A stretch of 64,000 bases of DNA from Gammaproteobacteria bacterium (GTDB lineage Bacteria; Pseudomonadota; Gammaproteobacteria; QZLD01). The stretch covers positions 7,830 to 71,829 of the forward strand of contig JAWSVA010000004.1 of NCBI GenBank assembly GCA_033852155.1. Direction: 5' to 3'. Position numbers and translations under genes: made by a program. Positions 663-17,752 of the stretch are shown here, in pieces. Under the pieces are notes generated by a model. That model saw only the letters and a list, made by a program, of their open reading frames with translations, was not told the origin of the DNA and did no database searches. Within the stretch, counting starts at the first letter, position 1. Each line of letters begins with the position of its first letter.

Positions 663-1985
663 TTAAACCAGTTTAGCACGCTTAAGCCCTTTTATTCCTC
701 GGCTTTTCCCTTGACGTTCATTTTCAATTGTTTTCTTAGACTCAAGCTGCTTTTTTACAATGCTCTCTGCAATTACCATAATGGCTATATAATGATAAGG
801 AAGGTCCCAATAAGCCATCCCTTTAAATGCACCGCCGATGGCCCAGCAGATCATGGCTATCTGCAGCATTGTCGCAAGATCCTTAGCCCAGGCTAAGTCT
901 TTATGCTCTCCAGCCAACTTTCTAATCTTGCCCCCTGTTATAAAACCAAAAAAGTTTAATAACAGGTACAGAATCAACCCTATAAATCCATGTTCACCTA
1001 AAACTTCAAAATAAATACTATGGGCATCACGCGCTATCTCCATCTCTTTATTATATTTTTCATAGGTTTTAAACGTGAACATCCTATAACCACCGCCAGT
1101 TAACGGGTGGTCTGTTGCAACCCATGTGGCAAGATACCAGGCATCGTAGCGCCCTTGCATTGAGAGATCCTCTTCATAGTCACCGATACTATCCATTCGT
1201 TGAAACCACTGCTGCGGCAAGACGTTATATGCTCCAATAGCTCCAATAGCAACCAGTAAAAAAATAACTTTTCTATGTTTGCTTAAATAAACCATCATGA
1301 AAAAACATGGGATTAAGGATATAAAAGCTCCTCGAGAATAAGATGCAATCACTGCCGCTGTACACAATCCCATGAACCCAAATAAACCAAAACGGATCCA
1401 TTTGTTATATGGTTGCAATTGTAAGTACCTGACCAAGGGAAGGATTAAAACTAACGCAATCGCTAACTCATTATTACCCGATATAAATGTATAATCAGGC
1501 CCCCAAACAAGATAATTCCCCCCTGTTGCTATCGCAAACAAACCACCTTTAACACCATAAAAACCTATGGATAAAACAATAACCCAAACCAATTGATTCA
1601 ATCTGTCTTTAGTATTTATTAGATATAAAGTAAGAAAAATTGCCAACTGTATTTTTAGCACCCTCATCCACTCTACATGTGCTAATTTTGGTTCAAAGGC
1701 GAACTGTGTGGTAATTGACATCCACACAACAAATAACAACAAAATAACAATCGCAGGTGTCCATGGTATCTTACGTTTCTCCATTTTATCTGGGCAAAAA
1801 ATAGCTGCAGCAATAGTAACTACGGCTATTACTAATGCGAATGGGAATGAATAAGCGAACCCATAGGTGAGGCGATGGGGACTCATATATCCAATCCAAG
1901 ACCACATTATTATTCCCAAATAGGGGCGATAAAAGATAAAGGGGATAGAACCAAAAACCGCCAGAAGAACTATTAGATCTCTCAT
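663..1985 (-). CDS. Polytopic membrane protein, O-antigen-ligase/Wzy_C-like. Resembles the exosortase-A-associated putative O-glycosylation ligase.
   Basis: 440 aa and highly hydrophobic, with about 10 or more predicted TM segments. It has a periplasmic loop of the kind seen in Wzy_C proteins. Its stop overlaps the upstream glycosyltransferase start by 4 nt, suggesting coupling. It is the last gene in the XrtA locus. Confidence 0.55.
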   Translation of the reverse strand: MRDLIVLLAVFGSIPFIFYRPYLGIIMWSWIGYMSPHRLTYGFAYSFPFALVIAVVTIAAAIFCPDKMEKRKIPWTPAIVILLLFVVWMSITTQFAFEPKLAHVEWMRVLKIQLAIFLTLYLINTKDRLNQLVWVIVLSIGFYGVKGGLFAIATGGNYLVWGPDYTFISGNNELAIALVLILPLVRYLQLQPYNKWIRFGLFGFMGLCTAAVIASYSRGAFISLIPCFFMMVYLSKHRKVIFLLVAIGAIGAYNVLPQQWFQRMDSIGDYEEDLSMQGRYDAWYLATWVATDHPLTGGGYRMFTFKTYEKYNKEMEIARDAHSIYFEVLGEHGFIGLILYLLLNFFGFITGGKIRKLAGEHKDLAWAKDLATMLQIAMICWAIGGAFKGMAYWDLPYHYIAIMVIAESIVKKQLESKKTIENERQGKSRGIKGLKRAKLV

Positions 1986-3208
1986 GAGCTTAATTTCCCA
2001 TCAATAATAGAAGTAAAGATATCCAGCTGGCCCTGAGTTGTTTGTCTCCAGCAATTTTCAGATCCAATCGCAGCCACTGTTTTCCTTTTCAACCCTTTAT
2101 TAAGCATTGTTCGTATTGCTTTGGTTAAAGCAGCATCGGTTCTATCATTTACTATTGTTCCGCATTCATCCGACAAGATCTCCGACACCCCACCTACATT
2201 TGTCGCCACTACTGGCGTTCCGCATGCAAGTGACTCTAATACTACATTGGGCATCCCCTCTCTACTAGATGCCAGCACCAATAGATCCGCTGAAGTATAA
2301 TAATCCCGTAACTGACTTTGTGATAAGTTTGAAATAAATCTTACACTATCAGATATCCTTAGATCAGCAGCCTGTTGTTGCAGGTTCTGCCTCTCCTCTC
2401 CATCACCAATTATAATTAAATTCACATTAGGTATTAGATTCGCATCAGACAATTTGGCAAGAGCAGCTATTACCAGATCAAATCCTTTTAACTTAGTAAG
2501 ATTACCAACAGATAAGATAGTATTTGGTTTGATATTTAACTTATTTCGTAAAATATTACGTTCATCAACCGATATGGGATGAAAAATTTCCTTATCCACT
2601 CCATTACGTAAAACATGGATTTTTTCCGCATCAACCCCTTTCGCAATTAGCTTTTGCCGTAGAGAATCTGCAACGGTAATTATGCTGTTGCTTTGTAGTG
2701 CTGATTTTTTAATCAATCTACCTGCTAACTGATAATCAGCAAATAGATTAACATCAGTTCCACGAGCCGTGATAACCAAAGGCTTATTTAGTTTTTTTGC
2801 CAAAATCGCAGCGGCAACACCATCTGGATAAAAATAGTGTGCATCGATAATATCAAAGTCAAAACCTTGGTTTATAAGACTTTTAACAACAGGTAGAGCA
2901 GCCCTTGCCATCATCATCGGGGTGATCGCGCCACCAAATTTTGGCAGGATAAAATACCTCGGATGATAAACATCTATACCGTTTAACGTTTCATGTTTTG
3001 GAACAGAATCAGATTCAGCATAACGTTTAAAAGCACCAGTTTTTATCGGAAAGGTTGCTATCGGAGCAACCACTTTGGTCTCTACCTGCTCTGATTTTAA
3101 TAGCTGACGCAGGCGTGTCTCAACGAATATGCCATGCCTGGGGCGCTGTGAATTTGGGTAGAGGGAGCTGAAAAGCAAGGTTTTGATCATTATACTCCTG
3201 AGCTCCAA
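1982..3208 (-). CDS. GT4-family (GT-B fold) glycosyltransferase
   Basis: 408 aa with a C-terminal EX7E-like region (SSREGMPNVVLESLACGTPVVATNVGG) typical of the RfaG/GT1 superfamily. Confidence 0.75.
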   Translation of the reverse strand: MELRSIMIKTLLFSSLYPNSQRPRHGIFVETRLRQLLKSEQVETKVVAPIATFPIKTGAFKRYAESDSVPKHETLNGIDVYHPRYFILPKFGGAITPMMMARAALPVVKSLINQGFDFDIIDAHYFYPDGVAAAILAKKLNKPLVITARGTDVNLFADYQLAGRLIKKSALQSNSIITVADSLRQKLIAKGVDAEKIHVLRNGVDKEIFHPISVDERNILRNKLNIKPNTILSVGNLTKLKGFDLVIAALAKLSDANLIPNVNLIIIGDGEERQNLQQQAADLRISDSVRFISNLSQSQLRDYYTSADLLVLASSREGMPNVVLESLACGTPVVATNVGGVSEILSDECGTIVNDRTDAALTKAIRTMLNKGLKRKTVAAIGSENCWRQTTQGQLDIFTSIIDGKLSS

Positions 3209-3416
3209 AGAAGTTTTTCAGGATAATAGGCTTTATATGCATTCCCACGCAGAGCATGGGAACGAGAAAAGTTCCCTGAGCGTAGCCGAAGGGTCGCCAT
3301 TCGTCCTGAGCCTGTCGAAGCATGATCAATGGGGTCAGAGTCAATGATTTTAAGATCCCTGAGCGTAGCCGAAGGGTCGAAAGAAAAAACATTGACTCTG
3401 ACCCCATTGATCTTAA
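3209..3416. repeat. Composite extragenic repeat element. It has a 23-bp perfect inverted repeat (3324-3346 and 3390-3412) and two direct copies of the 23-mer ccctgagcgtagccgaagggtcg (3274-3296 and 3357-3379), plus a degenerate third copy at 3301-3320.
   Basis: Read directly from the sequence. The element fills the gap between the asnB-like stop and the glycosyltransferase start. A related degenerate copy lies at 36203-36237. Confidence 0.7.
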
Positions 3417-5324
3417 TCATGCAAAAGTCTTCCTGCAAAATGCTTCAAACATTAACAGTGACCATAGCAGTGTACTAAAGTCACGCATTCCAGACTGGTG
3501 TTGTTCAACCAACCATTTAATATATTCCATATCAAATATTTCGGTATCAGCTAAAACTGGCCCCAACAGAGAATCACGCAAACGCTGTTTTAATGGGCCA
3601 CGAAACCACTCTGCCAACGGCACTGAAAACCCCATCTTTGGTCGATATAAAATTGAATCTGGAACCATTGGCTCTAGGGCTTTTTTAAAGATATATTTGC
3701 CTTCATTCCCTTTTACTTTGTATTCCGGCTTTATCCCAGATATCCACTCCACAAACTTGTGATCTAGAATAGGTACCCGCACTTCTAAACTGTGAGCCAT
3801 GCTGGCACGATCCACCTTAGTTAAAATATCACCAGGCAGGTAAGTTTTTAAATCGACATATTGAATACGGGAAAGGGAATCATCTTTTGGGCATTTATCC
3901 ATCTGTTCACGGAAAAACTGTTTAACGCTGTAGCCATTCAGATCTTGCTTAAACTTATTCGAGAATAACTTTCCACGCCATGCCTCTGGCACAAATGAAA
4001 CAGCATGCAGGTAGCCCTCTGCATCATCCATTGCCAATGACTGAAATGTAGATTTGGCACGAAACATCTGCGGCAACCAATCAAATTTAGGGTAGATTTT
4101 ACCCAAGAAACTAAATAACGGTCTTCGAATACAAGTAGGAATCTTATTGCGCACTTTGTTTTCATAAAATGCAAAACGATGGCGGCGATAACCAGACATC
4201 AGCTCATCTGCACCATCTCCTGAAAGAGATACGGTTACATGCTTACGCGCAAGTTCACAAACGCGATAGGTTGGAATAGCCGAGCTATCAGCATATGGTT
4301 CATCATAAATCGCTGCCAACTCATCGATCAGATCAAAATCATCAGCACCAACATGCTCAGAGTGATGATTAGTCTTATAGCGATCCGCTATCATCTGCGC
4401 ATATTCAGACTCATTAAATTTTTTACTTCCAAACGCAATCGAGCAGGTTTCTACCGGTTTGTCCGAAATCTTTGACATCAGAGCTACGATACCACTCGAA
4501 TCTACACCGCCTGATAAAAAAGCTCCAAGCGGTACATCAGCAATCATCCGCCCCTCAATTGCCTCACTTAACTTCTCAATGAGTTCTTTTTGGATCTCTT
4601 GCTCAGAAAGCTCAGAACCATTTTCTCCTACAAGATCTGCAAACGGAACATCCCAGTATTGGGTGATCTGCGGCTGTTTATCACCTAGTTTTATCTGCAA
4701 TAAATTACCAGGAGGCAGCTTATATACCCCGGTAAAAATAGTTTTGGGGTCTGGGATGTAACCAAGGGCAAAATAGTCCTCTACCGCTTGTATATCCATC
4801 TCACGTGAAACTGTTTTTTCAACCAGAAGAGATTTTAGCTCTGAGGCAAATAAAAAACGTCCATCTTCTAATACCGTATAAAAAATGGGCTTGATACCTA
4901 AACGGTCCCGAACTAGTGTGAGCTTTTGATCCCGTTTATCCCAAATTGCAAAGGCAAACATACCACGGAAGTGCTGAATACAATCCTCTTTCCAGGCATG
5001 CCAGGCATTTAGCATAACTTCGGTGTCCGACTTGGTATTAAACGCGTAACCTAGCTCTATTAACTCCTGCCTGACATCAGCAAAATTATAGGCCTCGCCG
5101 TTATAGACGAGAACCACTTGGTCATCCGCCGAGATCATGGGCTGCACGCCCCCGACTATATCTATAATAGAAAGGCGCCTATGCCCTAAAGCAATGCCTT
5201 GTTCCTGAAACACACCTTCGCCATCAGGACCTCGGTGAGTTTGAACATCATTCATCGCTTGCAACAAAGTGATATCGACCTGGCTTTCAGGTCTGGTCGC
5301 AAATATTCCTACAATCCCACACAC
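3417..5324 (-). CDS. Asparagine synthase (glutamine-hydrolysing) paralogue. This is the amidotransferase typically associated with XrtA/PEP-CTERM loci.
   Basis: It has the N-terminal MCGIVGI class-II glutamine amidotransferase Cys nucleophile and the SGGVDSS PP-loop ATP pyrophosphatase motif. It is 635 aa. It sits between glycosyltransferases in the exosortase locus. Confidence 0.8.
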   Translation of the reverse strand: MCGIVGIFATRPESQVDITLLQAMNDVQTHRGPDGEGVFQEQGIALGHRRLSIIDIVGGVQPMISADDQVVLVYNGEAYNFADVRQELIELGYAFNTKSDTEVMLNAWHAWKEDCIQHFRGMFAFAIWDKRDQKLTLVRDRLGIKPIFYTVLEDGRFLFASELKSLLVEKTVSREMDIQAVEDYFALGYIPDPKTIFTGVYKLPPGNLLQIKLGDKQPQITQYWDVPFADLVGENGSELSEQEIQKELIEKLSEAIEGRMIADVPLGAFLSGGVDSSGIVALMSKISDKPVETCSIAFGSKKFNESEYAQMIADRYKTNHHSEHVGADDFDLIDELAAIYDEPYADSSAIPTYRVCELARKHVTVSLSGDGADELMSGYRRHRFAFYENKVRNKIPTCIRRPLFSFLGKIYPKFDWLPQMFRAKSTFQSLAMDDAEGYLHAVSFVPEAWRGKLFSNKFKQDLNGYSVKQFFREQMDKCPKDDSLSRIQYVDLKTYLPGDILTKVDRASMAHSLEVRVPILDHKFVEWISGIKPEYKVKGNEGKYIFKKALEPMVPDSILYRPKMGFSVPLAEWFRGPLKQRLRDSLLGPVLADTEIFDMEYIKWLVEQHQSGMRDFSTLLWSLLMFEAFCRKTFA

Positions 5325-6535
5325 TATATTATTTTCCTTTGTGCAGTTTTCCCCTTCTCTTTTTCCAATACGCTTGAATAGAGATTGTCATATTTTGCTA
5401 CCATTGCAGCAAAACTAAAATTCTGTTGTATTCGCTCAATTGCATTCTTACCATGCTGCTGGCGTAACTGATCATCTTCTACATATTTATTCATTGCATC
5501 AGCCATCCACTTAGAATCAGAAGCCGGCACTATATATCCTGTTTTGCCATCATCAACTAGCTCGCGGTTACCACCAACATCAGTTGCAATTACTGGCAGT
5601 CCAGTAGCCATAGACTCTAATATAGTATTTGATATACCTTCAGCTAATGATGGTAAAACAAAAATATCTAGCTTATGTAAAATTGCTGGCACGTCATCTC
5701 TAGCCCCTGGCATCCAAACTAAATCTTGAATTGCGTTATCTTCAATAAGTTTTTCTGCAGGTGCAAACAAATTGCCATTCCCCACAAGAACCAAACGCAC
5801 TTTTTCTCTATGCTGCGGATGATTCTCAATAAAATGAACAAAGGCTCTGACCAATAGAAGGGTGTCCTTCACTTCCTCCATTCTGCCAACTGTTCCTATA
5901 ACAATTTTATCATCAAACTCTGCAGGATAACCTGCTACATTTGTTGTAACAGAAGGACTGAACCTTTCCGTGTCTACACCATTACATATACGCACAACTT
6001 TTTTAGAACTAATACCGACATCCTTAATCAACCAATTTTCTAAATCCATCGATAGAGCTGCGAAGCGATCAATAACTGGCGATAATAAACGACGTAAAAG
6101 CCGGTATTTTTTATTTGAGCCATCTATATCAATAGTATCTCTGCCATGCTCACTATGAATAATATATGGCACACCGGCTAAAAAGGCTGGCATTACAGCA
6201 TCCAGTGCTGGCAGGTTTCTGGTGTGTACAACCTTTGGCTTTAACTTTTTTAACATCCGATAAAGCTTAATGTAAATTTTTATATCTTTACCTGGGTGCT
6301 TATGCAGAGATATATATTCAACCTCACGGTTGGTTATACGATCTTTAAAGTGGGTGATCTCAGTGAGTGAAATCACAATATGACGATACTTATCCTGTGG
6401 CAGATTATTCAAAAGATTTACCACGCCGTTTTCCAACCCACCTACGTCGAGCCGAAAAAGCACGTGCGCAATTATTGGCCTGCTATCCACAATTTTTTTA
6501 TTTGCTATTATGCTTCCTGCACTACTACTATCCAT
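5324..6535 (-). CDS. GT4-family glycosyltransferase. This is a sugar transferase of the PEP-CTERM/EpsH1-associated type.
   Basis: 403 aa with a C-terminal PSLAEGISNTILESMATGLPVIATDVGG GT-B motif. Its start overlaps the xrtA stop. Confidence 0.75.
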   Translation of the reverse strand: MDSSSAGSIIANKKIVDSRPIIAHVLFRLDVGGLENGVVNLLNNLPQDKYRHIVISLTEITHFKDRITNREVEYISLHKHPGKDIKIYIKLYRMLKKLKPKVVHTRNLPALDAVMPAFLAGVPYIIHSEHGRDTIDIDGSNKKYRLLRRLLSPVIDRFAALSMDLENWLIKDVGISSKKVVRICNGVDTERFSPSVTTNVAGYPAEFDDKIVIGTVGRMEEVKDTLLLVRAFVHFIENHPQHREKVRLVLVGNGNLFAPAEKLIEDNAIQDLVWMPGARDDVPAILHKLDIFVLPSLAEGISNTILESMATGLPVIATDVGGNRELVDDGKTGYIVPASDSKWMADAMNKYVEDDQLRQQHGKNAIERIQQNFSFAAMVAKYDNLYSSVLEKEKGKTAQRKII

Positions 6536-8136
6536 TATCCATCCCTGCTAACTGTGAAAAGCAATGATTTAAGCTTATCTCTTGCCTCTTCAGCAGAAGA
6601 TTCAAGCTTTATGGTTAATACCTCGATGATCGCATCCGATCTTCTATCTAATACTATAGATCTCACCTGATTTAATTTAGTTCTAAGTTTTCCAGACGAG
6701 TTATATTTACCTGTTTTAATCCAGCTCCATACCAGCATCACACCCGAATTGCTTTTTAAGGTATTTTCCTGCACCTTAACATTAACTTCTCCAGCGCTGG
6801 TTTGCATTGGTACGTTAACTCCCCTTTCTGAGATGTTTTTCCAGACATCATCATCAAAAAGTTTATTGTTAACGTTTATTAGCTCTTTATTCTGGTTTTG
6901 CACAAAGTATTGAGCATTAGCATACCCAATCATAACTCCGTCTATAGCAAAACATCCAGCCTCCAACATATCGGCATTACGATGATTAAGGCCTATGCTA
7001 TTACATGGCTTTGCCACAAAATCAAGTTTACCTGCTGTATCATCAACAGGCCCTATCTTAGATATACTAATCTGTGCCTGTGGTTTTGACTTATCAACAT
7101 TAATCAACAATAGCAGGATCGTAGGCACTAATAAGATAACCGTGCAAATAGCAATGGATGTCTTAATTATTCCTCTTCTATTTGAAGCGAAATCATCTTG
7201 AGTTAATGACGCGGATTTATTGGCATCACCAGCAATATTTGAACTATTTCCACTTTCGCTATCTGTTGGTTTACCATCTTCGCGCCAAAAAGATCCAATC
7301 CAGAACATGACTAACATAACAACACCAAACCAAACCCAGCCATATATTATATGATCAAATCCGGTTGCATACTCCATGTCACTCAAATGGGCAATCATAA
7401 CTATGCCATAGGCGCGCAAACCATTAGCTACAATGGGGAATATTATCGAAAGGGCAATAAAAAGCAGGCGCCTTTTGGTTGATCTATAAGTAAGAAATGC
7501 ATAGAAATAACCTAACGCAATAGATGCTATAAGATAGCGTATACCACTACACGCTTTTACCACTTCAAAATTCCCAGAAGGGATCTCAAACATTAACCCC
7601 TCCCAATAAACTGGGATTCCGGTCAACTGTAACCCTTTTACTGCAAACCAAGCTGTGAATTGCATCAGCGAAGGAATAAGAAACTCACCCATCGGCACTG
7701 CAAATAACAGATATAACAATGGGTACCATACAGTGCGCGCAACTCTACAACCAAATACAGATAAAACCAACATTGGTAACATTGCAAATAATGAAAGCTG
7801 TTGTCCAACCGCAATTCCAGCAATACTAGCGAAAATCCAGAACAGCCCAAATATGGCAACTCCCAACACACCAAGATAACTAGTTGATGGGGTAAGTTTT
7901 AAACAATCAGATCGTTGACTCCAGATCATCCACGCTACGGCAGGTACAACAAACATACCGTGAATATAAGTATCTGATGCATCCCACCAGATCATCGCAG
8001 TAGCAATAATTGTCTGATGAAAAGCTACTATCAATAGTAATAACAATGCCACAAACACCTTGGCACTTATACTCCATGCCATGATATTTTTCCCGGCTAA
8101 CTCTGAAACTTCTTGTTTGGTTTGCATATTATCCAC
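6535..8136 (-). CDS. xrtA: Exosortase A (XrtA) fused to a C-terminal EpsI-family periplasmic domain.
   Basis: 533 aa. The N-terminal ~290 aa are a polytopic membrane domain carrying exosortase signature residues: a conserved Cys in VKACSGIRY, and Arg and His in the IVANGLRAYGIVMIAHL region. After that come one TM segment and a ~200 aa soluble domain, as in EpsI. A PEP-CTERM substrate gene lies 10 kb away in the same locus. Confidence 0.8.
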   Translation of the reverse strand: MDNMQTKQEVSELAGKNIMAWSISAKVFVALLLLLIVAFHQTIIATAMIWWDASDTYIHGMFVVPAVAWMIWSQRSDCLKLTPSTSYLGVLGVAIFGLFWIFASIAGIAVGQQLSLFAMLPMLVLSVFGCRVARTVWYPLLYLLFAVPMGEFLIPSLMQFTAWFAVKGLQLTGIPVYWEGLMFEIPSGNFEVVKACSGIRYLIASIALGYFYAFLTYRSTKRRLLFIALSIIFPIVANGLRAYGIVMIAHLSDMEYATGFDHIIYGWVWFGVVMLVMFWIGSFWREDGKPTDSESGNSSNIAGDANKSASLTQDDFASNRRGIIKTSIAICTVILLVPTILLLLINVDKSKPQAQISISKIGPVDDTAGKLDFVAKPCNSIGLNHRNADMLEAGCFAIDGVMIGYANAQYFVQNQNKELINVNNKLFDDDVWKNISERGVNVPMQTSAGEVNVKVQENTLKSNSGVMLVWSWIKTGKYNSSGKLRTKLNQVRSIVLDRRSDAIIEVLTIKLESSAEEARDKLKSLLFTVSRDG

Positions 8137-8190
8137 GCTAGGCTGTTACGCTATCCATTTTGTAAAACTGTATTATCTATACTCATAGAC

Positions 8191-9387
8191 TTAACCTTCT
8201 AGTAGGTCCACAACTTTGGCAACGTTACTTTGCCAGTTATAATTTTTCAAGATCATCTCGCGCCCTTTATCACCCCAAGACTTAGCTTGTGCATCATCTT
8301 GTAATAGTTCAGCTACTTTGTCTGCGTAGGTTTGAGCATCATCTATAGTTAGCTCAGAAAACTGTTCAATATCTTTAATCCCTTCCATAGCCTGGCTAGT
8401 TGCAACAACTGCTTTGCCCATCGACATAGCCTCCAGCACTTTATTTTGTACTCCGCGAGCAATTCGAAGTGGAGCAACAGATAGGTTAGAGTATTGAATA
8501 TAAGGGCGAACATCCTCCACTCTTCCAGTAACAGTTACTCCGGCAATATTACTTAAGGCATTTACTTTCGCAGTTGGCTTTGACCCAACGATAAAAAACT
8601 CCAAACCGGATATTTTTTGCTGTACTAACGGAAGAACTTCTTCAGCAAACCAAACAACAGCATCAACATTAGCCCAATAATCCATGGCCCCTGTAAATAC
8701 AATTTTAGGCGCTGCATTTACATATAGATTTCCTACATCAGAATTTGCAGTAAAAAATTCATAATCGACACCGTTATCAATGCTATGTACCTTCTCTGCC
8801 ACAGCTGGAACAAGCTCACGAAACAAAGCGCTCTCTTTTTCTGACACAAACAGGCTGTGATCGGCCTGCTGCGCAACCATCTTTTCCCATTCAAATAATT
8901 TTTTATATTCACGTTTATACAACCAACTGGCAGGCCATTTTTTGCGGCTACTATATTGGCGCCACTTGTCCGAATCAATATCAACAAAATCAACGACCAT
9001 TTTCAGATCAAAGCGGGTTGATGAAACAAATTGAGCCATTGCAGATGAGAAAACCAGAGTTTTATTGACCCCTTTTGCAATAACTTGCTCTACATAATCG
9101 GATAGCTCTTTACTTTGGTAGTATGGAATAGATAACGCATCTGCGGTAAGAAAACCTTTTAAGGATTTAATCTTGCTTACAAATGGATCAATCTCTATCG
9201 CACAAAAAGACTCGCACAAAGATGCAACATGCTCTTTATATTGCAGATCTTCTTTATCATCTATGAAGGTCGCTAAGTGAATCTTGTACTCTTTTCGCAA
9301 CTCATTTAAGAGATGATAAGACCTAATCTTATCTCCTTTATTTGGCGGATATGGAATACGGTGCGCAAGAAACAGCAACTCTTTCAT
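8191..9387 (-). CDS. Glycosyltransferase (GT-B fold) of the type associated with PEP-CTERM/exosortase systems.
   Basis: 398 aa. Position and fold-level motifs only; family recognition is weak. Confidence 0.6.
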   Translation of the reverse strand: MKELLFLAHRIPYPPNKGDKIRSYHLLNELRKEYKIHLATFIDDKEDLQYKEHVASLCESFCAIEIDPFVSKIKSLKGFLTADALSIPYYQSKELSDYVEQVIAKGVNKTLVFSSAMAQFVSSTRFDLKMVVDFVDIDSDKWRQYSSRKKWPASWLYKREYKKLFEWEKMVAQQADHSLFVSEKESALFRELVPAVAEKVHSIDNGVDYEFFTANSDVGNLYVNAAPKIVFTGAMDYWANVDAVVWFAEEVLPLVQQKISGLEFFIVGSKPTAKVNALSNIAGVTVTGRVEDVRPYIQYSNLSVAPLRIARGVQNKVLEAMSMGKAVVATSQAMEGIKDIEQFSELTIDDAQTYADKVAELLQDDAQAKSWGDKGREMILKNYNWQSNVAKVVDLLEG

Positions 9388-9420
9388 TTGACTACCCCTA
9401 ATAATATTTAAGGTTTAGGA

Positions 9421-10473
9421 TTATCCAAGATTTTTAGAGATCATTGGGCCAATAACGCGACAAAGACCAAGAGGCAACTTCTTCCAAGTATCGATAAAAA
9501 ATTTATACTTTGGATTATTAGGGTTAATCTCTGGCATCTTATCTGCTTTTACCAAATAGTATTGATACGGAAGCGGTTCTGGTACAAATCCCCAGTTCTT
9601 TTTAAAACTATAGGCCCCAGTTCCCTCTTTACTACGGCCAAAATCAAAAATTCTACACCCTTTTTCTGCTGCGCGACGCATCACTTCCCAATACATAAAA
9701 TCATTGCCTGCAAGTGATCGAGCAGAATCTTTACCACCGCCGTAATAAGGCAATACTGCATCACGAAAATAAAAATTCATAACACTGGCAACCACTTCAC
9801 CTTCATGGGTAATAGTTACTATTTCACACTTATCTTTAAATACATCTTTAAGAATCTGGAAATATTTTTTCGCAAAGACTGGAGTTCCCAATCTCCAAAC
9901 ACTAAAGGAATACGCATCAAAAAAACGTTCAATATCTTCGTCAATCTCACTTTGTAAGCCAGCTTTAATACCCTTACGCACCATCGCCCTTTGCTTGCGA
10001 GGGATAGCTGACATATTCTCATCGTCATCAGAGCTTATCTCTTTACTAAAGGTTACATACAGCTCTTTAGTTGGCCATTCTGGATTATTTATTTTCCGTT
10101 CACGCAGTTCAAGACTATCTACCTTTAGCTGATCCGCCAGTTTACAAGCCTGCTGTTCCAGTAATTCCCTTACATCATCAGAATCTGCTATTGCCCCACC
10201 ATATACAGTAAAAGGCATACTCACTAAATTATTACCAAATAACATACTCTTTACATGGCCGAGAGGAAGCACACCTACTATCTTGCCACTAGATTCTCCA
10301 TCCGCAACAGATTCGGCATAATACATATAAGTCTTATGACCAAAGGCCTTTTCAATAACTGCTTGCCACTCCGCTAAATGGAAAAAAGTGCCATCAGCAT
10401 TATTAGTGACGTATTGATTCCAATCCGCATATTTATCTTTAGTAAGTAGTTTTATCGCTAATGCTTCGTTCAT
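9421..10473 (-). CDS. FemAB-family (GNAT-fold) protein of the type associated with XrtA/PEP-CTERM systems.
   Basis: 350 aa cytoplasmic protein. It is the expected size and occupies the locus position of the exosortase-associated FemAB-like proteins. Recognition is by context and general composition and is moderate. Confidence 0.55.
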   Translation of the reverse strand: MNEALAIKLLTKDKYADWNQYVTNNADGTFFHLAEWQAVIEKAFGHKTYMYYAESVADGESSGKIVGVLPLGHVKSMLFGNNLVSMPFTVYGGAIADSDDVRELLEQQACKLADQLKVDSLELRERKINNPEWPTKELYVTFSKEISSDDDENMSAIPRKQRAMVRKGIKAGLQSEIDEDIERFFDAYSFSVWRLGTPVFAKKYFQILKDVFKDKCEIVTITHEGEVVASVMNFYFRDAVLPYYGGGKDSARSLAGNDFMYWEVMRRAAEKGCRIFDFGRSKEGTGAYSFKKNWGFVPEPLPYQYYLVKADKMPEINPNNPKYKFFIDTWKKLPLGLCRVIGPMISKNLG

Positions 10474-10485
10474 TCTAATCCTAAT

Positions 10486-11343
10486 TTATTTATTAAGGTC
10501 TACGCGCGGCTTATCTTCTGGCTGTAAGAAAATATTATCCATCCGGTCCCAATCAAAATCCTGTAACAATCTACCTAATCTTTTTTCCATTCGACTAAGA
10601 TTAGTATAGTGCCTAAACTTAGTCTTAAAGTTAGTTCCTTCTTGTCTTGGCTGCTCAGGGTCTATCTCCCACGGATGAAAATAGAAAACAGACGCCTGTT
10701 TATCAACTTTATTTACTTTATTTATTGCGCGCTTAGACCAAAAATATGGCAACAAGCGAAAATAACCTCCGCCACCACAAGGAAAATTATTCCCCAACAC
10801 CTTAGTTGTAGTTACTGGAACTTCGATAAGATCCAGATCATTTGGTAAAAATGCAAAGCGTGGTGCATCAGGCATCCCATAAAGATCGTGGTGAATCGGA
10901 TATATACTTGAGCTATATTTATGCCCAGTTTCCTGCAATATATCTAATGCCCACAAATTCTTTGTTCCAATGGAGTAGCTCGGAGCCCTATAACCTTTTA
11001 TCTCTGTACCAGATAAATCCTCCAACAGCTTTTTGGTCTTTATAATATCTTCTCTAAATTCATCTTTAGTCATCTTGATGATACGAACATGATCCCAACC
11101 ATGACTAGCAAGCTCATGCCCCTGCTCAACAATTCTTTTAATTAACTGAGGATATCTATGGGCCACCCAACCAAGTACGAAAAATGTTGCTTTAACACCA
11201 TGCTGTGAAAATAGCTGCAGCGCTTTATCGGTATTTTGCTCTACACGACATGGTAATCTCTCCCAATCAGATCGATCGATTACATTTTCAAAGGCTGAAA
11301 CCTGAAAATAATCTTCTATATCAATGGTCATAGCATTTTTCAT
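10486..11343 (-). CDS. Polysaccharide deacetylase (NodB family) of the XrtA-locus type.
   Basis: 285 aa. MTIDIEDYFQ at the N-terminus and the HGWDH motif match the NodB/CE4 catalytic motifs. Confidence 0.7.
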   Translation of the reverse strand: MKNAMTIDIEDYFQVSAFENVIDRSDWERLPCRVEQNTDKALQLFSQHGVKATFFVLGWVAHRYPQLIKRIVEQGHELASHGWDHVRIIKMTKDEFREDIIKTKKLLEDLSGTEIKGYRAPSYSIGTKNLWALDILQETGHKYSSSIYPIHHDLYGMPDAPRFAFLPNDLDLIEVPVTTTKVLGNNFPCGGGGYFRLLPYFWSKRAINKVNKVDKQASVFYFHPWEIDPEQPRQEGTNFKTKFRHYTNLSRMEKRLGRLLQDFDWDRMDNIFLQPEDKPRVDLNK

Positions 11344-11397
11344 GATTTCAGCTTCGCTTGATTTATGTACAAAGTTATAAATACTTTTAAAAAAAGA

Positions 11398-12534
11398 TTA
11401 AGACAATTGCTCTAACCACTGCGATAGGTGTGCAGCAATACGTTTAGCAGTATTTCCATCCCAATATTCTGGAATACGCCCTGCCTTTCCTTTTCCTTCC
11501 ATCACCTGGTCAAAAGTTTTAAGTATCAGCTCACGATCTGTACCAACAATTGTATTGGTACCATCGGTAGCGGTAATAGGTCTTTCAGTGGATTCTCGCA
11601 GAGTTACACAAGGTACACCAAGAGCCGTTGTCTCCTCCTGAATCCCTCCAGAATCAGTCAATACAACCTTTGCCCCTTGCATCAATCCCAGCATATCTAG
11701 ATATCCAGCTGGAGGTATTCGCAGGATAGAATCAGTCTGTAATAACCCCTCTAACCCAAATATCTCAATTTTTGATGCTGTACGCGGATGAACTGGAAAT
11801 ACGATAGGGATGCGTTTACTGATTGTATTCATTGTTTCCAATAAACCACGTAAAGTAGCCTCATCATCCACATTAGATGGGCGATGCAGGGTTAAAATCG
11901 CATAACTTCCATTTTCCCCTGTGAATTTTTCCCCTCCACCGTTGTTTGCAAATATTTGCTGCGCTGGAGTTGCCTGTTCTAAGTTATTACGCAAGGTATC
12001 AATCATCACATTACCAACGAACTGCACTTTCTTGCCAGCAATCCCCTCTTGAGCTAGGTTATCTGCTGCTTCACGCTCAGTGGTATAAAGTAAGTCAGAT
12101 AGTTGATCTGTAAGTATTCTATTAATCTCTTCCGGCATAGTGCGATCGCGACTACGCAATCCTGCCTCAACATGAATAACAGGAATATTTTTTTTCGCAG
12201 CGACTAAACCACAAGCAACAGTTGAATTAACATCCCCGACAACTAACACTGCTGCAGGATTATGTTTATCAACTTCGGGCTCAAATCTTTTCATTATATC
12301 TGCAGTTTGTACTGCATGAGAGCCTGAACCAACACCAAGATCAACATCAGGTTTTGGAATTCCAAGTTGATCAAAAAATGTTTTTTTCATCGCCTCATCA
12401 TAGTGCTGTCCTGTATGTACCAAAACAGCGTTTATTTGACTATTTTCTCTATTAAATTCAGCCATTAATGGAGCTATTTTCATAAAATTTGGTCTAGCTC
12501 CAACCACACACATAACTGTTTTATTTTTTTCCAC
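11398..12534 (-). CDS. wecB: UDP-N-acetylglucosamine 2-epimerase (non-hydrolysing)
   Basis: 378 aa with the characteristic MKIAPL...HTGQHYD...RPNFMK and HVEAGLRS motifs. Confidence 0.85.
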   Translation of the reverse strand: MEKNKTVMCVVGARPNFMKIAPLMAEFNRENSQINAVLVHTGQHYDEAMKKTFFDQLGIPKPDVDLGVGSGSHAVQTADIMKRFEPEVDKHNPAAVLVVGDVNSTVACGLVAAKKNIPVIHVEAGLRSRDRTMPEEINRILTDQLSDLLYTTEREAADNLAQEGIAGKKVQFVGNVMIDTLRNNLEQATPAQQIFANNGGGEKFTGENGSYAILTLHRPSNVDDEATLRGLLETMNTISKRIPIVFPVHPRTASKIEIFGLEGLLQTDSILRIPPAGYLDMLGLMQGAKVVLTDSGGIQEETTALGVPCVTLRESTERPITATDGTNTIVGTDRELILKTFDQVMEGKGKAGRIPEYWDGNTAKRIAAHLSQWLEQLS

Positions 12535-12590
12535 GTCGTCCTTCCCAGGAATTAACTCATGCTATTTAAATTTTGGGGGTGGCAGATTAA

Positions 12591-13694
12591 TTAATTACCG
12601 CCATCTTGGTTAGAGCCAAACTGTTTGCGAATATTTCCAAATAAGATTTCATGAAGATATTCAATTTTCATCTCCAGTTTATTAACTTTTTTCTCTAATC
12701 CTTCTATCTTTTCTTCAGCCCCTTCAAGTGCTGCTGAAGTTATGGCCTTATATTCATCGTAATTTCTTTGCGGTGTACCAGGCTTGGTCTTTTTACTTGA
12801 TTCAGATGATTCCGCAATACACTTATCAAAAAACCGCTCCGAAATATCTACATCATCTTTTTGTGACTCATGAGTTATAGCAAGCATTTCCCCTTTTAGC
12901 TCATTAACAACTCTTATCGTTACATCGCTATTAAAGTGATCAAGCTCTTCAATCGCACCAAGCAATAGCAGCCTATTACACAATCTATTAATTTTACGAG
13001 GGATACCGCCAGAGTTTTCAAAAATTGACCTTAAAGCATCATCAGCAAACTCTGGCCTACTCTTCCAGCCAGATTTAATTAAACGATAAAGAATATAGTC
13101 CTTTGTCTCTTCTGAACTTAATGGTTCTAGATGGCAAGAAGCTATTATTCTTTGCCGAAACTGCTCCATAGATTCATGCCCAAGCAAATACTGTAGTTCA
13201 ATCTGCCCCAATAAAAAGCACTGTAATACTGGCTTACCTTTATAACTTATATTAGAAAGCATACGCAGCTCTTCTAAACCTGATAACGACAAATTCTGAG
13301 CTTCGTCAATTACAAGCAATACTCTCTTTCCATCTTTAGAAACCTTAAACAGATACTCTTCAAGCTTGCCAATTGCTTGAGGTTTTGTCAGCCCTTTACT
13401 ATCAATTTTCAAGGCTGAGCAAACCATATATGGGATATCATCCCCATCTAACTGAGTTGTAACAATTCTTGAAGCTATAACTGGACCAAACTCTAATACT
13501 GAAAACAACCTTTCAACCAAGGTTGTTTTACCAGTACCAATATCGCCAGTAATAACAATAAAACCTTCACCTTGCTTTAATCCATATTGGAGATAAGCGA
13601 ACCCTTGCTTATGTACCTTGCTACCAAAAAACAGGTCCATATTTGGAGTTAGTTGAAAAGGGTTGCCTTTAAATCCGTAAAAATCTTCGTACAT
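12591..13694 (-). CDS. AAA-type ATPase (ExeA-like) of the XrtA/PEP-CTERM-associated type.
   Basis: 367 aa. The Walker A motif is GDIGTGKTT and Walker B is LLVIDEAQNL. There is a C-terminal coiled-coil tail. Confidence 0.65.
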   Translation of the reverse strand: MYEDFYGFKGNPFQLTPNMDLFFGSKVHKQGFAYLQYGLKQGEGFIVITGDIGTGKTTLVERLFSVLEFGPVIASRIVTTQLDGDDIPYMVCSALKIDSKGLTKPQAIGKLEEYLFKVSKDGKRVLLVIDEAQNLSLSGLEELRMLSNISYKGKPVLQCFLLGQIELQYLLGHESMEQFRQRIIASCHLEPLSSEETKDYILYRLIKSGWKSRPEFADDALRSIFENSGGIPRKINRLCNRLLLLGAIEELDHFNSDVTIRVVNELKGEMLAITHESQKDDVDISERFFDKCIAESSESSKKTKPGTPQRNYDEYKAITSAALEGAEEKIEGLEKKVNKLEMKIEYLHEILFGNIRKQFGSNQDGGN

Positions 13695-13739
13695 ATTTGT
13701 TCCGCAAGCAATAGTCTGAATGCTTTATGATTAATACAA

Positions 13740-15182
13740 TTAATATTTCAGCTCAGCCCCAACAGTAAATTTTGCCTGTTTATATTCAAAAGCGGCTTCT
13801 GTGCCATCACGAATTCCTGCTTGAACAGCAGTATACCAGATTGCTTTTTTACTCATGTTTCTAGTGTATTTCAATGAGTAAGTGCTCATATCATCTAATC
13901 TATCATTTAAATCATCTCCAAGCCTCCACCATCTTAGGTTAGCTCTGATATTTGATTTACTTGATAGGGTATAATCCCACTGAATATCTGCCCCAATAAA
14001 AATCTCATTCTGCCCTAAATTTCTATAAATTCGATCTTCGTATTTCAAGGTTAAATCGATACTGTTTTTTACACCCTCAACATTCCAGGTGAGACGTGTT
14101 TTTTTCTGTACATAGACATCACTTTCTCCACGATAAAACTTATATAAACGTTCATCAACAAGCTGATCTGTAATATCCTGAGTTACTCGATTTACCTGCT
14201 GTTCGCTATAACTTAGGCTTAATGCAGTTTTATTATTTTCATAGCTGAAACTTGCAAGATATGTGTCACCATAAAGGTCTTCCCCACCACCAAACTCAAG
14301 CTTTGTTCTAGTTGATAGCGAGTAAGCAATTTTTGCATCCCAAACATTACCTTCAAACCAGGAATAATTGGTAGATGAGCTAAGCCGCTCCCATTTCTTC
14401 CCAAGCATAATATAAAATATAGCTCTATTAAAAATAGGGTAACTAGATACCAAATCTACTTGTCTATATTCTGAAGCATTAAAGCCTTCAGTTTGTATAT
14501 ATTCGAAGCTGGAATTAATATTCCAATTAAACAATGCTGATCTAGATGCTGTGCCAAATGATACAATCGCATCATGCTCTTCAACATCATCGATTCCTCG
14601 ATCATAATATATTTTTCCGTGCGACGATGAATAACTAACGCCTAAATCACCAGATATCGGCAGTACAAACCTAGGCTTAATCTGCCCAGTATATTTATTA
14701 GCGCTGTTGGCGCCATAGATCAATCCATCAAATGATATTGCATCTTCAGCATCTATTACTTCACTTTCATGTGAGACATAAAAATCAGTAAAAAACCTAT
14801 CCCTGATTAACTCAACCCCAAGATCACCTCTTAGCAGATGTTGCATGTCATTCATACCGCTATTTTTGGCGTACATATACCCCGAAGCTCTATAATCCAT
14901 ATAGGCATTAACTCTACGGCCTTGGCTCTTAAGGTTCACAAAAGGCGAAACTAATAGATAGCTATCTGATTCACGTTGCGCAGCCCCAATATCAACATTA
15001 TCTGTAAAAACATATTCTGAGGTAACCCCAGCATTAAGCTCCAACTTTTTTGCATATATGGTTGTTGAAAATAAAAGCAGTAAAACCACAACTGATTTAT
15101 TAACGAATACAAATGGGTTTTTAATTAAATAAACCACGGCATTCCCTCGTCTATTTATATTGTCTTCTATATGATGAACCAT
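13740..15182 (-). CDS. Putative outer-membrane beta-barrel protein of the PEP-CTERM-system-associated type.
   Basis: 480 aa. A hydrophobic signal-like segment VVVLLLLFSTTIYA lies near the N-terminus. The composition is rich in alternating aromatic residues and ends in a terminal ...AELKY (aromatic C-terminus). The annotated start overlaps the upstream gene by 32 nt, so the true start may be further downstream. Confidence 0.5.
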   Translation of the reverse strand: MVHHIEDNINRRGNAVVYLIKNPFVFVNKSVVVLLLLFSTTIYAKKLELNAGVTSEYVFTDNVDIGAAQRESDSYLLVSPFVNLKSQGRRVNAYMDYRASGYMYAKNSGMNDMQHLLRGDLGVELIRDRFFTDFYVSHESEVIDAEDAISFDGLIYGANSANKYTGQIKPRFVLPISGDLGVSYSSSHGKIYYDRGIDDVEEHDAIVSFGTASRSALFNWNINSSFEYIQTEGFNASEYRQVDLVSSYPIFNRAIFYIMLGKKWERLSSSTNYSWFEGNVWDAKIAYSLSTRTKLEFGGGEDLYGDTYLASFSYENNKTALSLSYSEQQVNRVTQDITDQLVDERLYKFYRGESDVYVQKKTRLTWNVEGVKNSIDLTLKYEDRIYRNLGQNEIFIGADIQWDYTLSSKSNIRANLRWWRLGDDLNDRLDDMSTYSLKYTRNMSKKAIWYTAVQAGIRDGTEAAFEYKQAKFTVGAELKY

Positions 15183-16134
15183 AGTAAGGATTTGAATTTC
15201 TTGTCCTTGATTTATTTAAAACAAGATTAACAATATCGTTATCATCCAGTATATCAACTGCTTTTTTTACATTTTCATGAGAGGTTGAGTAAGACTCAAC
15301 AACCAATACAACCTGCCCAACAATGTCAGCTAAAACCTTTGCTTCACTTGTAATAAGAAGAGGAGGTGAATCCAGAATAACAGCACGATCATTATATCTT
15401 TGTGAAATCTCATCTATAAGCGATAGCATTGCGCTACTTGCAAGAATTTCAGTTGCTTTTTCATGCCCGCTTCCTGCTGGTAGTATTACTAGGTTTTCAA
15501 TATTAGTTTTAACCAATACGTCGGTCATTTTAATAGTGTCATCAACCAATAAATCAATTAGCCCCGGTAAATCAGGGTCCAAACCAAGATATTCACTTAT
15601 CGATGGTTTAGGAATATCTGCATCGATAAGCAAAACCGTTGTATCCATCTCTGTAGCCATGCTCATAGCCAAGTTAATTGATGTAAAAGTTTTCCCTTCA
15701 CCAGGTAAGGCACTAGTTACCATTATAATATTAGAGTTATCGAACTCTTTAGATGCTGCCCCAAATGCATTATTTAGAATAGGCCTTTTAATAATTCTAA
15801 ACTCTTCAACTAAAGAATTATCATCTCTACTTGAAGTGATAATATTTTTGCTTTCAAGCTTACGCAAATCAATTTTCTGAGGTTTTGCGCTAGTTATGAT
15901 ATTTGATTCGCTTTCAGCCGCAATCTGACTTTGTCTATTAGCCGAATTAGAGTTATCTTTATTTTTGGAAGCTTTTCCCGGCTCATTCCAAAATTCAGCT
16001 GGATTTAACTCATCATTATATTCTTCTTCAATACGTTTACGATAATCTTGCTGATCTTTTTGTTCATCTACACTTGAACTTTCAGCTGAACCACTCTTTT
16101 TTAGTTTGTTAAATGCATTTTCTATAGTGCTCAT
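15151..16134 (-). CDS. BY-kinase ATPase subunit. This is the Wzc C-terminal-like tyrosine autokinase (EpsG type).
   Basis: 327 aa. It has Walker A ALPGEGKTFTSINLA, Walker A' VLLIDADIPKPS and Walker B VILDSPP. The C-terminal tail is Tyr-rich: PYYGSSYRRQYK. Confidence 0.7.
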   Translation of the reverse strand: MSTIENAFNKLKKSGSAESSSVDEQKDQQDYRKRIEEEYNDELNPAEFWNEPGKASKNKDNSNSANRQSQIAAESESNIITSAKPQKIDLRKLESKNIITSSRDDNSLVEEFRIIKRPILNNAFGAASKEFDNSNIIMVTSALPGEGKTFTSINLAMSMATEMDTTVLLIDADIPKPSISEYLGLDPDLPGLIDLLVDDTIKMTDVLVKTNIENLVILPAGSGHEKATEILASSAMLSLIDEISQRYNDRAVILDSPPLLITSEAKVLADIVGQVVLVVESYSTSHENVKKAVDILDDNDIVNLVLNKSRTRNSNPYYGSSYRRQYK

Positions 16135-16135
16135 A

Positions 16136-17752
16136 TTAACCTACCAATTGAGTCAGCTTAGCGGCCAGATCTATTCCAGCATAGTGGATAAAAACAATAG
16201 TTATAAAAAAACAAAAATATATTACAAATCCAAGAGAAAACGTCATTATCTCAAACTTACGTTTTATTTTTCTTCTGCTATCGACTACTAAAGATACAGC
16301 TCCTAAAATAGGTCTATCGGCTATTTTCTCTAACGTCTTTTGACTATCAACTATTGGTTTTATCTGCCCTAAAAAGAAAGCAAAGAAAATACCACAAGCA
16401 AGTGAAGCCAGCATAACCACAGCTGAAAAAATAATTCTCGGGGGACCAGATGGATTAAATCCAACATATGGAGGATCAACAACATCAAAGTTAACGTTAT
16501 CAGTTCTTTGCTCCACATTTTGCGATATTAATGCAGACTCTTTTCGATCGACTAAAGCCTCATAATTTTTCTTATGTATACTATAATCTCTATTCAAGCT
16601 TTTTAATTCTGCTTCTACAGCTGGTATGATATCAATCTTAGCTTTTAACTTCTCTACCCTGTCCTGATATTCCACCAGCCTTGCTTTTGATACCGCTAAA
16701 TCAGCTTCCGTATTTCCATAGGATATCAATAGTTCCTGATAGATCGGGTTGGTATTAAGCATATCAAGAGGATTAGCATTTATTTTTGCAACCACATCTT
16801 GCTCAATTTTTTCCATGTCTGCTGCACGCTTCGATTCCAACTGAGAAAGCATTGCTTGAGCTTGAACTACATCTGGATGCTCATCAGTAAACCGTAGTTT
16901 AAGATTTCTTAAAGTATCCTTGTATTCTTCAATATCACTATCTAAATCGTGTTCAAAATCTTTACTTAATTTTTCACCTGAGCTTCTTTCAGAAACTTTT
17001 TTAGCTTCCTCAATGGCGTCTTTTTTCTGCTTATCTATAAGCTTTTGTAATCTCTTGCGCTTATTTTTCAACTCTGTATTTACAAGTCTATGCTTTTCCA
17101 GGTCATCTAAAGCACGCTGCATTCTGACATAATAGCCACCGCTATCACCAGGCATCTCACCAACATGTTCTCTTTTAAACTCTTTTAAACTGTTTTCAGC
17201 CTCTTCAAGTTTTTCTTTGTATTCATCAATTTGCTGATCAAGAAATGCTTGAGCAACATCAGTATCCTTTCTATTAGCACCCAGAGTGCTCTCAATAAAA
17301 ACTGTTAATATTGAGCTTACTACTTTTTTAGCTACCACTGGATCTTCATGAACATAGATAATTTTGTATTGGTCTTTTTGCAGATATCGACCAATTTTAA
17401 TTTTTTTCTCTAGTTGCTTAAGCAGTTTCTCTTCATCTTCTTCAGAGCTAACCTCAATATCTAAATCCGCCATCCTCGCAATTTGCTGTAGCTTAGGACG
17501 GGTAAATAGACGGATTTTTATCTGGCGCACTCTTTCTGAAAGATTAGTTGTTACTACAAGCCTGCCTAAAAGTGGTTTTAGAATTGATTCAGTATCAGCA
17601 TAAACAGTCGCAGTTGCTTCATACTGATCAGGAAGCTGTGCTACGACCCCCCAGCCTAAAACACCAACAAACCATGCGACAGCCAACATTACCCAGCGAA
17701 AACGCCAGACACTTCTTAGATATGTGAATAACTTATCTATAAATTCAAGCAT
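16136..17752 (-). CDS. Polysaccharide chain-length determinant (Wzz/Wzc N-terminal-like) of the PEP-CTERM locus subfamily (EpsF type).
   Basis: 538 aa. There is an N-terminal TM segment, a long coiled-coil periplasmic region and a C-terminal TM segment. It sits immediately upstream of the split kinase subunit. Confidence 0.7.
   Translation of the reverse strand: MLEFIDKLFTYLRSVWRFRWVMLAVAWFVGVLGWGVVAQLPDQYEATATVYADTESILKPLLGRLVVTTNLSERVRQIKIRLFTRPKLQQIARMADLDIEVSSEEDEEKLLKQLEKKIKIGRYLQKDQYKIIYVHEDPVVAKKVVSSILTVFIESTLGANRKDTDVAQAFLDQQIDEYKEKLEEAENSLKEFKREHVGEMPGDSGGYYVRMQRALDDLEKHRLVNTELKNKRKRLQKLIDKQKKDAIEEAKKVSERSSGEKLSKDFEHDLDSDIEEYKDTLRNLKLRFTDEHPDVVQAQAMLSQLESKRAADMEKIEQDVVAKINANPLDMLNTNPIYQELLISYGNTEADLAVSKARLVEYQDRVEKLKAKIDIIPAVEAELKSLNRDYSIHKKNYEALVDRKESALISQNVEQRTDNVNFDVVDPPYVGFNPSGPPRIIFSAVVMLASLACGIFFAFFLGQIKPIVDSQKTLEKIADRPILGAVSLVVDSRRKIKRKFEIMTFSLGFVIYFCFFITIVFIHYAGIDLAAKLTQLVG

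What the first reader, a model, noticed from the sequence alone, without database searches (positions are those of the whole stretch)
6535..8136. Exosortase and EpsI encoded as one fused polypeptide.
In most XrtA loci epsH/xrtA and epsI are separate adjacent genes. Here a 533 aa ORF carries the 8-TM exosortase core, then one additional TM segment and a ~200 aa soluble domain, so EpsI is fused to XrtA. The fusion supports a direct physical partnership between the transpeptidase-like core and the EpsI domain. It also gives a natural construct for structural work.
Basis: partly seen in the sequence, partly recalled or inferred. Interest (0 to 1): 0.55.

Follow-up and report, generated by a model that had tools for sequence, protein, structure and literature searches.

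The report
Ordinary exosortase A with EpsI domain
The gene really does encode an exosortase joined to an EpsI domain in one protein, but this joined form is the normal, long-described architecture of exosortase A, so the finding is ordinary.

Summary
ORF 6535..8136 (minus strand, 533 aa; 530 aa from the first ATG) encodes an XrtA core (aa 28-286, TIGR03109 329 bits against a cutoff of 208), a poorly conserved linker, one extra TM helix (aa 327-345) and a soluble C-terminal domain. That domain passes the EpsI models (TIGR02914 43.6 against 42.8; PF11984 44.9 against 26.1). It is not an assembly artefact: the orthologue in an independent assembly is also 533 codons, aligns without gaps, and shows synonymous-biased substitution across the EpsI part.

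The interpretation rests on a wrong premise. Fused XrtA-EpsI is the norm:
- All 120 best whole-protein hits are fused.
- 141 of the 150 best cluster representatives found with the core alone are fused.
- 79 of 80 species-representative genome loci are fused.

Haft et al. 2006 already described the fusion, and NCBI names TIGR02914 'exosortase C-terminal domain/associated protein EpsI'. The stand-alone EpsI genes in the papers read here sit next to exosortase B or in a few split pairs such as Geobacter GSU1979/1978.

The gene lies in a textbook XrtA/PEP-CTERM exopolysaccharide locus (663-22258). One small addition: the EpsI domain is predicted to be periplasmic and weakly resembles Mog1/PsbP-like folds.

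Verdict: already known, low interest.

The parts
6535..8136 (-). Whole xrtA gene: 533 aa from GTG at 8136, including the stop codon. The first in-frame ATG at 8127 gives the 530-aa form found in the database.
   Evidence: P0001 is 100% identical and 530 aa
7279..8055 (-). Exosortase A 8-TM core, aa 28-286
   Evidence: TIGR03109 329.3 bits against cutoff 208; PF09721 240 bits. The 8-TM, N-in/C-in topology is inferred from loop charges.
7549..7551 (-). Codon of Cys196, the conserved Cys proposed as the catalytic nucleophile (CSG motif)
   Evidence: Invariant in 47 aligned homologues; codon TGT read directly. The catalytic role was not tested here.
7414..7416 (-). Codon of Arg241, the conserved exosortase Arg (NGLRAY motif)
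   Evidence: Invariant column
7351..7353 (-). Codon of His262, the conserved exosortase His (DH motif)
   Evidence: Invariant column
7159..7278 (-). Cytoplasmic linker, aa 287-326. Poorly conserved and low model confidence; positively charged just before the next TM.
   Evidence: 8.8% mean identity over aa 291-320; net charge +1.30 in the last 10 residues; pLDDT below 50 over aa 293-310; 22 amino-acid changes against 2 synonymous versus L001 over aa 291-326
7102..7158 (-). Extra TM helix (TM9), aa 327-345, inferred to run from cytoplasm to periplasm
   Evidence: Kyte-Doolittle mean 2.85, the highest in the protein; part of helix 313-345 in the model; charge pattern
6541..7029 (-). EpsI domain, aa 370-532, an alpha/beta sandwich predicted to be periplasmic
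18586..19344 (-). PEP-CTERM protein, a candidate substrate in the same locus
   Evidence: C-terminal ...IPEPALLAIFGLGLAAFGFVSRKRK; PF07589 24.2 bits against cutoff 20.7
663..22258 (-). Surrounding XrtA/PEP-CTERM exopolysaccharide locus. Genes: O-glycosylation ligase-like protein, GT4 glycosyltransferase, amidotransferase, stp2 glycosyltransferase, xrtA, stp1 glycosyltransferase, FemAB-family protein, deacetylase, WecB, ATPase, outer membrane protein, Tyr kinase, chain-length determinant, export protein, PEP-CTERM protein, PrsT.
   Evidence: XrtA-system NCBIfam models above cutoff: TIGR03097, 03108, 03088, 03087, 03019, 03006, 03016, 03018, 03007, 03027, 02917. TIGR03015 falls just below its cutoff.

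Best explanation
This is a standard exosortase A (XrtA) gene in its usual form: an 8-TM core followed by a linker, a ninth TM helix and a C-terminal EpsI domain. It sits in a canonical XrtA/PEP-CTERM exopolysaccharide operon of an uncultured marine-type gammaproteobacterium.

Shown here: the family memberships, the conserved Cys196/Arg241/His262, the intact frame under purifying selection, and the prevalence of the fused form.

Inferred from loop charges: the core has both ends in the cytoplasm. The three conserved residues lie at the periplasmic ends of TM6, TM7 and TM8. TM9 carries the EpsI domain back across the membrane, so it sits in the periplasm on the same face as the active site.

From established proposals for the family (Haft 2006): PEP-CTERM proteins are exported by Sec and stay anchored by their C-terminal helix. 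XrtA then recognises and cleaves at the PEP motif, in a sortase-like way, and releases or transfers the protein into the exopolysaccharide matrix.

Speculative: EpsI, a Mog1/PsbP-like sandwich, is a tethered accessory module. It may help present the substrate or the acceptor at the active site, or cap the site.
For: Family scores above curated cutoffs for the XrtA core and for EpsI. Full-length collinear alignment to the fused XrtW (NF038142) and XrtD (TIGR04152) models, both below their own cutoffs. Catalytic-type residues and five EpsI positions invariant in 47 homologues. Eleven flanking genes pass XrtA-system-specific models. A PEP-CTERM protein lies in the locus. Fused architecture in all 120 best whole-protein hits, in 141 of 150 representatives found with the core alone and in 79 of 80 genome loci. 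Literature: Haft 2006 text and Table 1. Frame integrity and purifying selection. Loop charges consistent with a periplasmic EpsI. Confident structure models.
Confidence: 0.93

Rival explanations
1. The fusion is an assembly or sequencing artefact: a collapsed stop codon or frameshift has merged separate xrtA and epsI genes.
For: None found. Raw reads cannot be examined with these tools.
Against: The L001 orthologue from an independent assembly is exactly 533 codons with no gaps, and substitutions are third-position and synonymous biased in TM9 and EpsI. Independent sequences at 83-89% identity are 530-541 aa. Hundreds of more distant homologues share the same single-chain architecture.
Confidence: 0.01
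2. The fusion is a rare, lineage-specific event that gives new evidence for an XrtA-EpsI partnership.
For: Split EpsH/EpsI pairs do exist: Methylobacillus sp. 12S EpsH/EpsI, Hahella HCH_03425/03424, Geobacter GSU1979/1978 and Gmet_2003/2002. Separate EpsI genes lie next to exosortase B in Janthinobacterium and Curvibacter.
Against: Fused forms dominate every sample taken. In the part of Haft 2006 Table 1 that was read, 7 EpsH entries carry the same locus tag as EpsI, against 3 split pairs. The fusion is stated in that paper's text and in the NCBIfam family name. XrtW and XrtD models are themselves fused-length, 494 and 486 positions.
Confidence: 0.02
3. The C-terminal domain is not a true EpsI homologue but an unrelated periplasmic domain that scores marginally by chance.
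For: TIGR02914 scores only 43.6 bits against a cutoff of 42.8, and covers profile positions 37-163 of 174.
Against: Independent Pfam model PF11984 scores 44.9 against a cutoff of 26.1. E-values are about 1e-11. All listed homologues carry a precomputed PF11984 domain. The protein aligns collinearly with the EpsI-containing C-terminal parts of the XrtW and XrtD models. Five residues are invariant across 47 homologues.
Confidence: 0.03

Closest known systems
Fused exosortase A proteins of Nitrosococcus oceani (Noc_1778), Nitrosomonas europaea (NE1797), Thiobacillus denitrificans (Tbd_0290), Dechloromonas aromatica (Daro_2406) and Nitrosospira multiformis (Nmul_A2521)
   Same: Same single-chain architecture of EpsH/XrtA core plus EpsI region. 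Listed under both the EpsH and EpsI columns of Haft 2006 Table 1. Named 'exosortase A' proteins of N. oceani and N. watsonii (528 and 526 aa) are among the hits at 38-39% identity.
   Different: Only sequence divergence (about 35-40% identity) and a somewhat longer linker here: 44 residues over aa 283-326, against a median of 32.
Methylobacillus sp. 12S EpsH + EpsI, the founding split pair, and exosortase B (XrtB) loci with a separate EpsI gene
   Same: Homologous exosortase core and homologous EpsI module, encoded together in an exopolysaccharide locus.
   Different: Two adjacent genes instead of one. They belong to a PEP-CTERM system 'of a distinct type'. The window protein scores only 60.9 bits on the XrtB model against a cutoff of 275.
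Exosortases XrtW (NF038142) and XrtD (TIGR04152)
   Same: Their models are fused-length (494 and 486 positions). The window protein aligns to them almost end to end, over aa 28-524 and 50-526. This suggests that core + TM + EpsI is shared across several exosortase subfamilies.
   Different: Scores are far below their cutoffs (181.8 against 425; 131.9 against 400), so this protein is not a member. Those subfamilies are named for other sorting signals, for example VPLPA-CTERM for XrtD.
Mog1/PsbP-like fold proteins (DcrB, PsbP, Eag chaperones PA0094/SciW, Mog1)

Membership tests
Exosortase A (XrtA, TIGR03109) | Score above the curated NCBIfam cutoff, with full-length coverage of the model | tested here: met
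   329.3 bits against cutoff 208; model positions 3-261 of 261
Exosortase A (XrtA, TIGR03109) | Conserved Cys, Arg and His of the exosortase/archaeosortase signature region | tested here: met
   C196, R241 and H262 invariant in 47 homologues. TIGR04178 exo_archaeo signature 72.3 bits against cutoff 23.
Exosortase A (XrtA, TIGR03109) | Located among XrtA-system exopolysaccharide genes | tested here: met
   TIGR03097, 03108, 03088, 03087, 03019, 03006, 03016, 03018, 03007, 03027 and 02917 all pass their cutoffs in 663-22258
Exosortase A (XrtA, TIGR03109) | PEP-CTERM substrates encoded in the genome | tested here: met
   One PEP-CTERM protein at 18586-19344, PF07589 above cutoff. The genome-wide count cannot be obtained from one window.
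Exosortase A (XrtA, TIGR03109) | Co-occurring PrsK/PrsR two-component regulator | tested here: inconclusive
   PrsT is present. No PrsK or PrsR was found among the ORFs scanned in the 64-kb window. They may lie elsewhere in the genome, as in several genomes of Haft 2006 Table 1.
Exosortase A (XrtA, TIGR03109) | Cleavage or sorting of PEP-CTERM proteins | not testable with these tools
   Needs biochemistry or genetics
EpsI (TIGR02914 / PF11984 DUF3485) | Score above the curated cutoffs | tested here: met
   TIGR02914 43.6 against 42.8, which is marginal; PF11984 44.9 against 26.1
EpsI (TIGR02914 / PF11984 DUF3485) | Fused to, or encoded next to, an exosortase | tested here: met
   Same ORF as the XrtA core. 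This matches the family definition in Haft 2006.
EpsI (TIGR02914 / PF11984 DUF3485) | Membrane-anchored domain outside the cytoplasm | tested here: inconclusive
   A TM helix at 327-345 is preceded by a net-positive segment, and the loop charges are consistent with a periplasmic location. No experimental topology.
Mog1/PsbP-like fold | Significant structural similarity to solved members | tested here: inconclusive
   [not shown]

The most novel reading that the evidence does not exclude
The most novel reading not excluded concerns EpsI in general, not this locus. EpsI would be a periplasmic Mog1/PsbP-like module, tethered by TM9 next to the exosortase active site. It would bind the hydrophobic PEP-CTERM tail or the acceptor glycan, much as the structurally similar Eag chaperones (SciW, PA0094) hold transmembrane helices. 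That would give a function to a domain with 'no known function' since 2006.
Probability: 0.12. Interest if true: 0.5.

Novelty: already known. Interest (0 to 1): 0.08.

Why it matters
It matters little as a discovery. The XrtA-EpsI fusion was reported in the paper that defined the family, and it is the dominant form of XrtA in current databases. Useful outcomes:
- The premise that split genes are the norm is corrected. In the papers read here, stand-alone EpsI genes sit next to exosortase B or in a few split pairs such as Geobacter GSU1979/1978.
- This locus is confirmed as a complete, intact XrtA/PEP-CTERM exopolysaccharide operon.
- There is a modest structural lead: EpsI is probably periplasmic and may have a Mog1/PsbP-like fold. 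This could guide experiments on a domain whose function is still unknown.

Tried and rejected
- PDB sequence search with the whole protein: no match at E up to 1.
- Foldseek against the PDB with the full model: nothing at E of 0.001 or lower.
- The look-up of encoding contigs for the 100%-identical protein P0001: not on record, so the source record and organism name were not recovered. The nearest named genome is a Gammaproteobacteria MAG at 84% identity.
- Haft et al. 2012 (J Bacteriol) could not be read by DOI or by PMC id.
- A literature search for DUF3485 gave nothing relevant.
- The tblastn match for L076 (Nitrococcus) stopped at residue 311, which suggested a split gene. The HMM check showed core and EpsI in one ORF there too.
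- The 9 of 150 representatives without a detectable EpsI were inspected. Several end in Arg/Gly-rich tails or have intermediate lengths that suggest frameshifts or contig-end truncation, so they are weak evidence for true core-only XrtA.

Full report
**Observation.** The window holds one uninterrupted ORF at 6535..8136 on the minus strand, 533 aa from a GTG start. The first in-frame ATG lies nine bases downstream, at 8127. It gives the 530-aa form, and a 100%-identical protein of that length is in the public protein collection. NCBIfam places aa 28-286 in exosortase A: TIGR03109 scores 329.3 bits against a cutoff of 208, over the full model. It places aa 397-526 in EpsI: TIGR02914 scores 43.6 bits against 42.8, which is marginal. 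Pfam agrees independently, with PF09721 over aa 33-284 and PF11984/DUF3485 over aa 408-525 at 44.9 bits against 26.1. A hydropathy scan finds the core TM segments plus the most hydrophobic segment of the whole protein at aa 327-345, followed by a soluble tail of about 188 aa.

**Is the ORF real?** I could not look at reads, but comparative evidence settles it. The orthologue in an independent metagenome-assembled genome (L001, 84% aa identity) is exactly 533 codons and aligns without a gap. Differences fall mainly at third codon positions: 24/10/93 at positions 1/2/3 in the core and 13/12/43 in EpsI. Synonymous changes outnumber amino-acid changes in the core (85:28), the extra TM (9:4) and EpsI (36:23). 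Only the linker evolves freely, with 2 synonymous against 22 amino-acid changes. Other independent sequences at 83-89% identity are 530-541 aa. A collapsed stop or frameshift is excluded for practical purposes.

**Is the fusion unusual?** No, and this is the central point. Four lines of evidence agree.
- All 120 best hits of a whole-protein search are 500-552 aa with both Pfam domains. They include proteins named 'exosortase A' from Nitrosococcus, Sulfurimicrobium, Inmirania, Nitrotoga and Methylophilaceae, and a fused-length Sulfuricella protein.
- To remove the bias of a fused query, I searched with only aa 1-300 against 1.84 billion cluster representatives (clusters at 50% identity). 139 of the 150 best are at least 480 aa. 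With HMMs built separately for the core and for EpsI, 141 of 150 carry both domains in one chain. Several of the nine exceptions look truncated or frameshifted.
- In species-representative genomes, 79 of the 80 best loci have core and EpsI in the same ORF. The remaining one lies at a contig end. This ranking used the full-length query, so it favours fused genes.
- The literature already says so. Haft et al. [quoted passage not shown] In the part of their Table 1 that I read, seven genomes list the same locus tag under EpsH and EpsI (Nmul_A2521, Tbd_0290, Daro_2406, Gmet_1503, NE1797, Noc_1778, Rru_A3120). Three pairs are split.

NCBI's current name for TIGR02914 is 'exosortase C-terminal domain/associated protein EpsI'. 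The stand-alone EpsI genes in the papers I read accompany exosortase B in Janthinobacterium and Curvibacter. The founding Methylobacillus system is described as a PEP-CTERM system 'of a distinct type'. The window protein also aligns almost end to end with the fused-length XrtW and XrtD models, so this architecture is shared across exosortase subfamilies.

**Context.** The gene sits in a textbook XrtA/PEP-CTERM exopolysaccharide operon on the minus strand from 663 to 22258. In order, the genes are: putative O-glycosylation ligase, GT4 glycosyltransferase, XrtA-system amidotransferase, stp2 glycosyltransferase, xrtA, stp1 glycosyltransferase, FemAB-family protein, polysaccharide deacetylase, WecB, system ATPase, outer membrane protein, tyrosine autokinase, chain-length determinant, export protein, a PEP-CTERM protein, and PrsT. 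The PEP-CTERM protein ends in ...IPEPALLAIFGLGLAAFGFVSRKRK and passes PF07589. The xrtA stop codon overlaps the start of the stp2 gene by one base (TAATG at 6535), which suggests translational coupling. PrsK and PrsR were not found in the window. The remaining 40 kb is gammaproteobacterial housekeeping: fab cluster, RNase E, RluC, LolA, HolB, Tmk, MltG, PabC and TilS.

**How it most likely works.**
- Shown: Cys196, Arg241 and His262 are invariant in 47 homologues, as are Y410, N424, W432, W472 and K487 in the EpsI part.
- Inferred: across the alignment, loops 129-136 (+1.23), 217-222 (+2.21) and the ten residues before TM9 (+1.30) are net positive. Loop 46-59 (-0.68) and the 172-191 hairpin (-0.94) are net negative.
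- By the positive-inside rule, and using the helices of a confident AlphaFold2 model (pLDDT 83, pTM 0.80), this gives an 8-TM core with both ends in the cytoplasm.
- In that topology the three conserved residues sit at the periplasmic ends of TM6, TM7 and TM8. The linker is cytoplasmic, and TM9 delivers EpsI to the periplasm on the same face as the active site.
- The extra TM is thus a topological necessity of the fusion. In split systems the same helix would presumably act as the N-terminal anchor of EpsI.
- The catalytic scheme is the family's standing hypothesis from Haft 2006 and was not tested here. Sec-exported PEP-CTERM proteins stay anchored by their C-terminal helix and are cleaved or transferred by the exosortase.

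**Verdict.** The protein is an ordinary member of a well-described family in its most common architecture. The Rosetta-stone argument for an XrtA-EpsI partnership and the idea of a structural construct apply to hundreds of known sequences and date from 2006. Novelty: already known. Interest: low.

Noticed in passing
[not shown]
   Followed up: partly
window 7159-7278 (-), aa 287-326: The linker between the core and TM9 evolves very fast: 22 amino-acid changes against 2 synonymous versus the 84%-identical orthologue, and 8.8% mean identity in the family over aa 291-320. The stretch aa 283-326 is 44 residues here against a median of 32. There are still no indels between the two close orthologues.
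   Followed up: partly
window 6533-6537: The xrtA stop codon TAA overlaps the ATG of the downstream stp2 glycosyltransferase by one base (TAATG), which suggests translational coupling.
   Followed up: no
window 8127-8136 (-): The start codon is ambiguous. The ORF opens with GTG at 8136 (533 aa), but the identical database protein starts at the ATG at 8127 (530 aa). The N-terminal 20 residues or so are not conserved among homologues.
   Followed up: partly
window 12591-13694 (-): The XrtA-system ATPase scores just below its NCBIfam cutoff (TIGR03015, 319.6 against 324.5 bits). It is 367 aa against a 269-position model, so it carries about 100 extra C-terminal residues.
   Followed up: no
window 13740-15182 (-): The PEP-CTERM-system outer membrane protein (TIGR03016) matches only profile positions 3-283 of 477 and has no Pfam hit. 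Its C-terminal half is divergent.
   Followed up: no
window 22366-23175 (-): A 269-aa ORF lies next to PrsT, just outside the XrtA locus as delimited here (663-22258), and has no NCBIfam or Pfam match.
   Followed up: no
window 24805-27180 (+): A 791-aa DUF1631 protein (PF07793, 577 bits). It resembles the NCBIfam 'PacR family' model but falls far below its cutoff (260 against 1200 bits). It lies just outside the XrtA locus on the opposite strand.
   Followed up: no
window 53909-55192 (+): A 427-aa protein that combines a cyclic-nucleotide-binding domain with an HDOD domain. It has no NCBIfam family.
   Followed up: no
window 18586-19344 (-): The only PEP-CTERM protein in the window also carries a DUF4114 domain (PF13448, 27.7 bits against cutoff 27). 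It sits between the export gene and PrsT, a plausible position for a dedicated substrate.
   Followed up: partly
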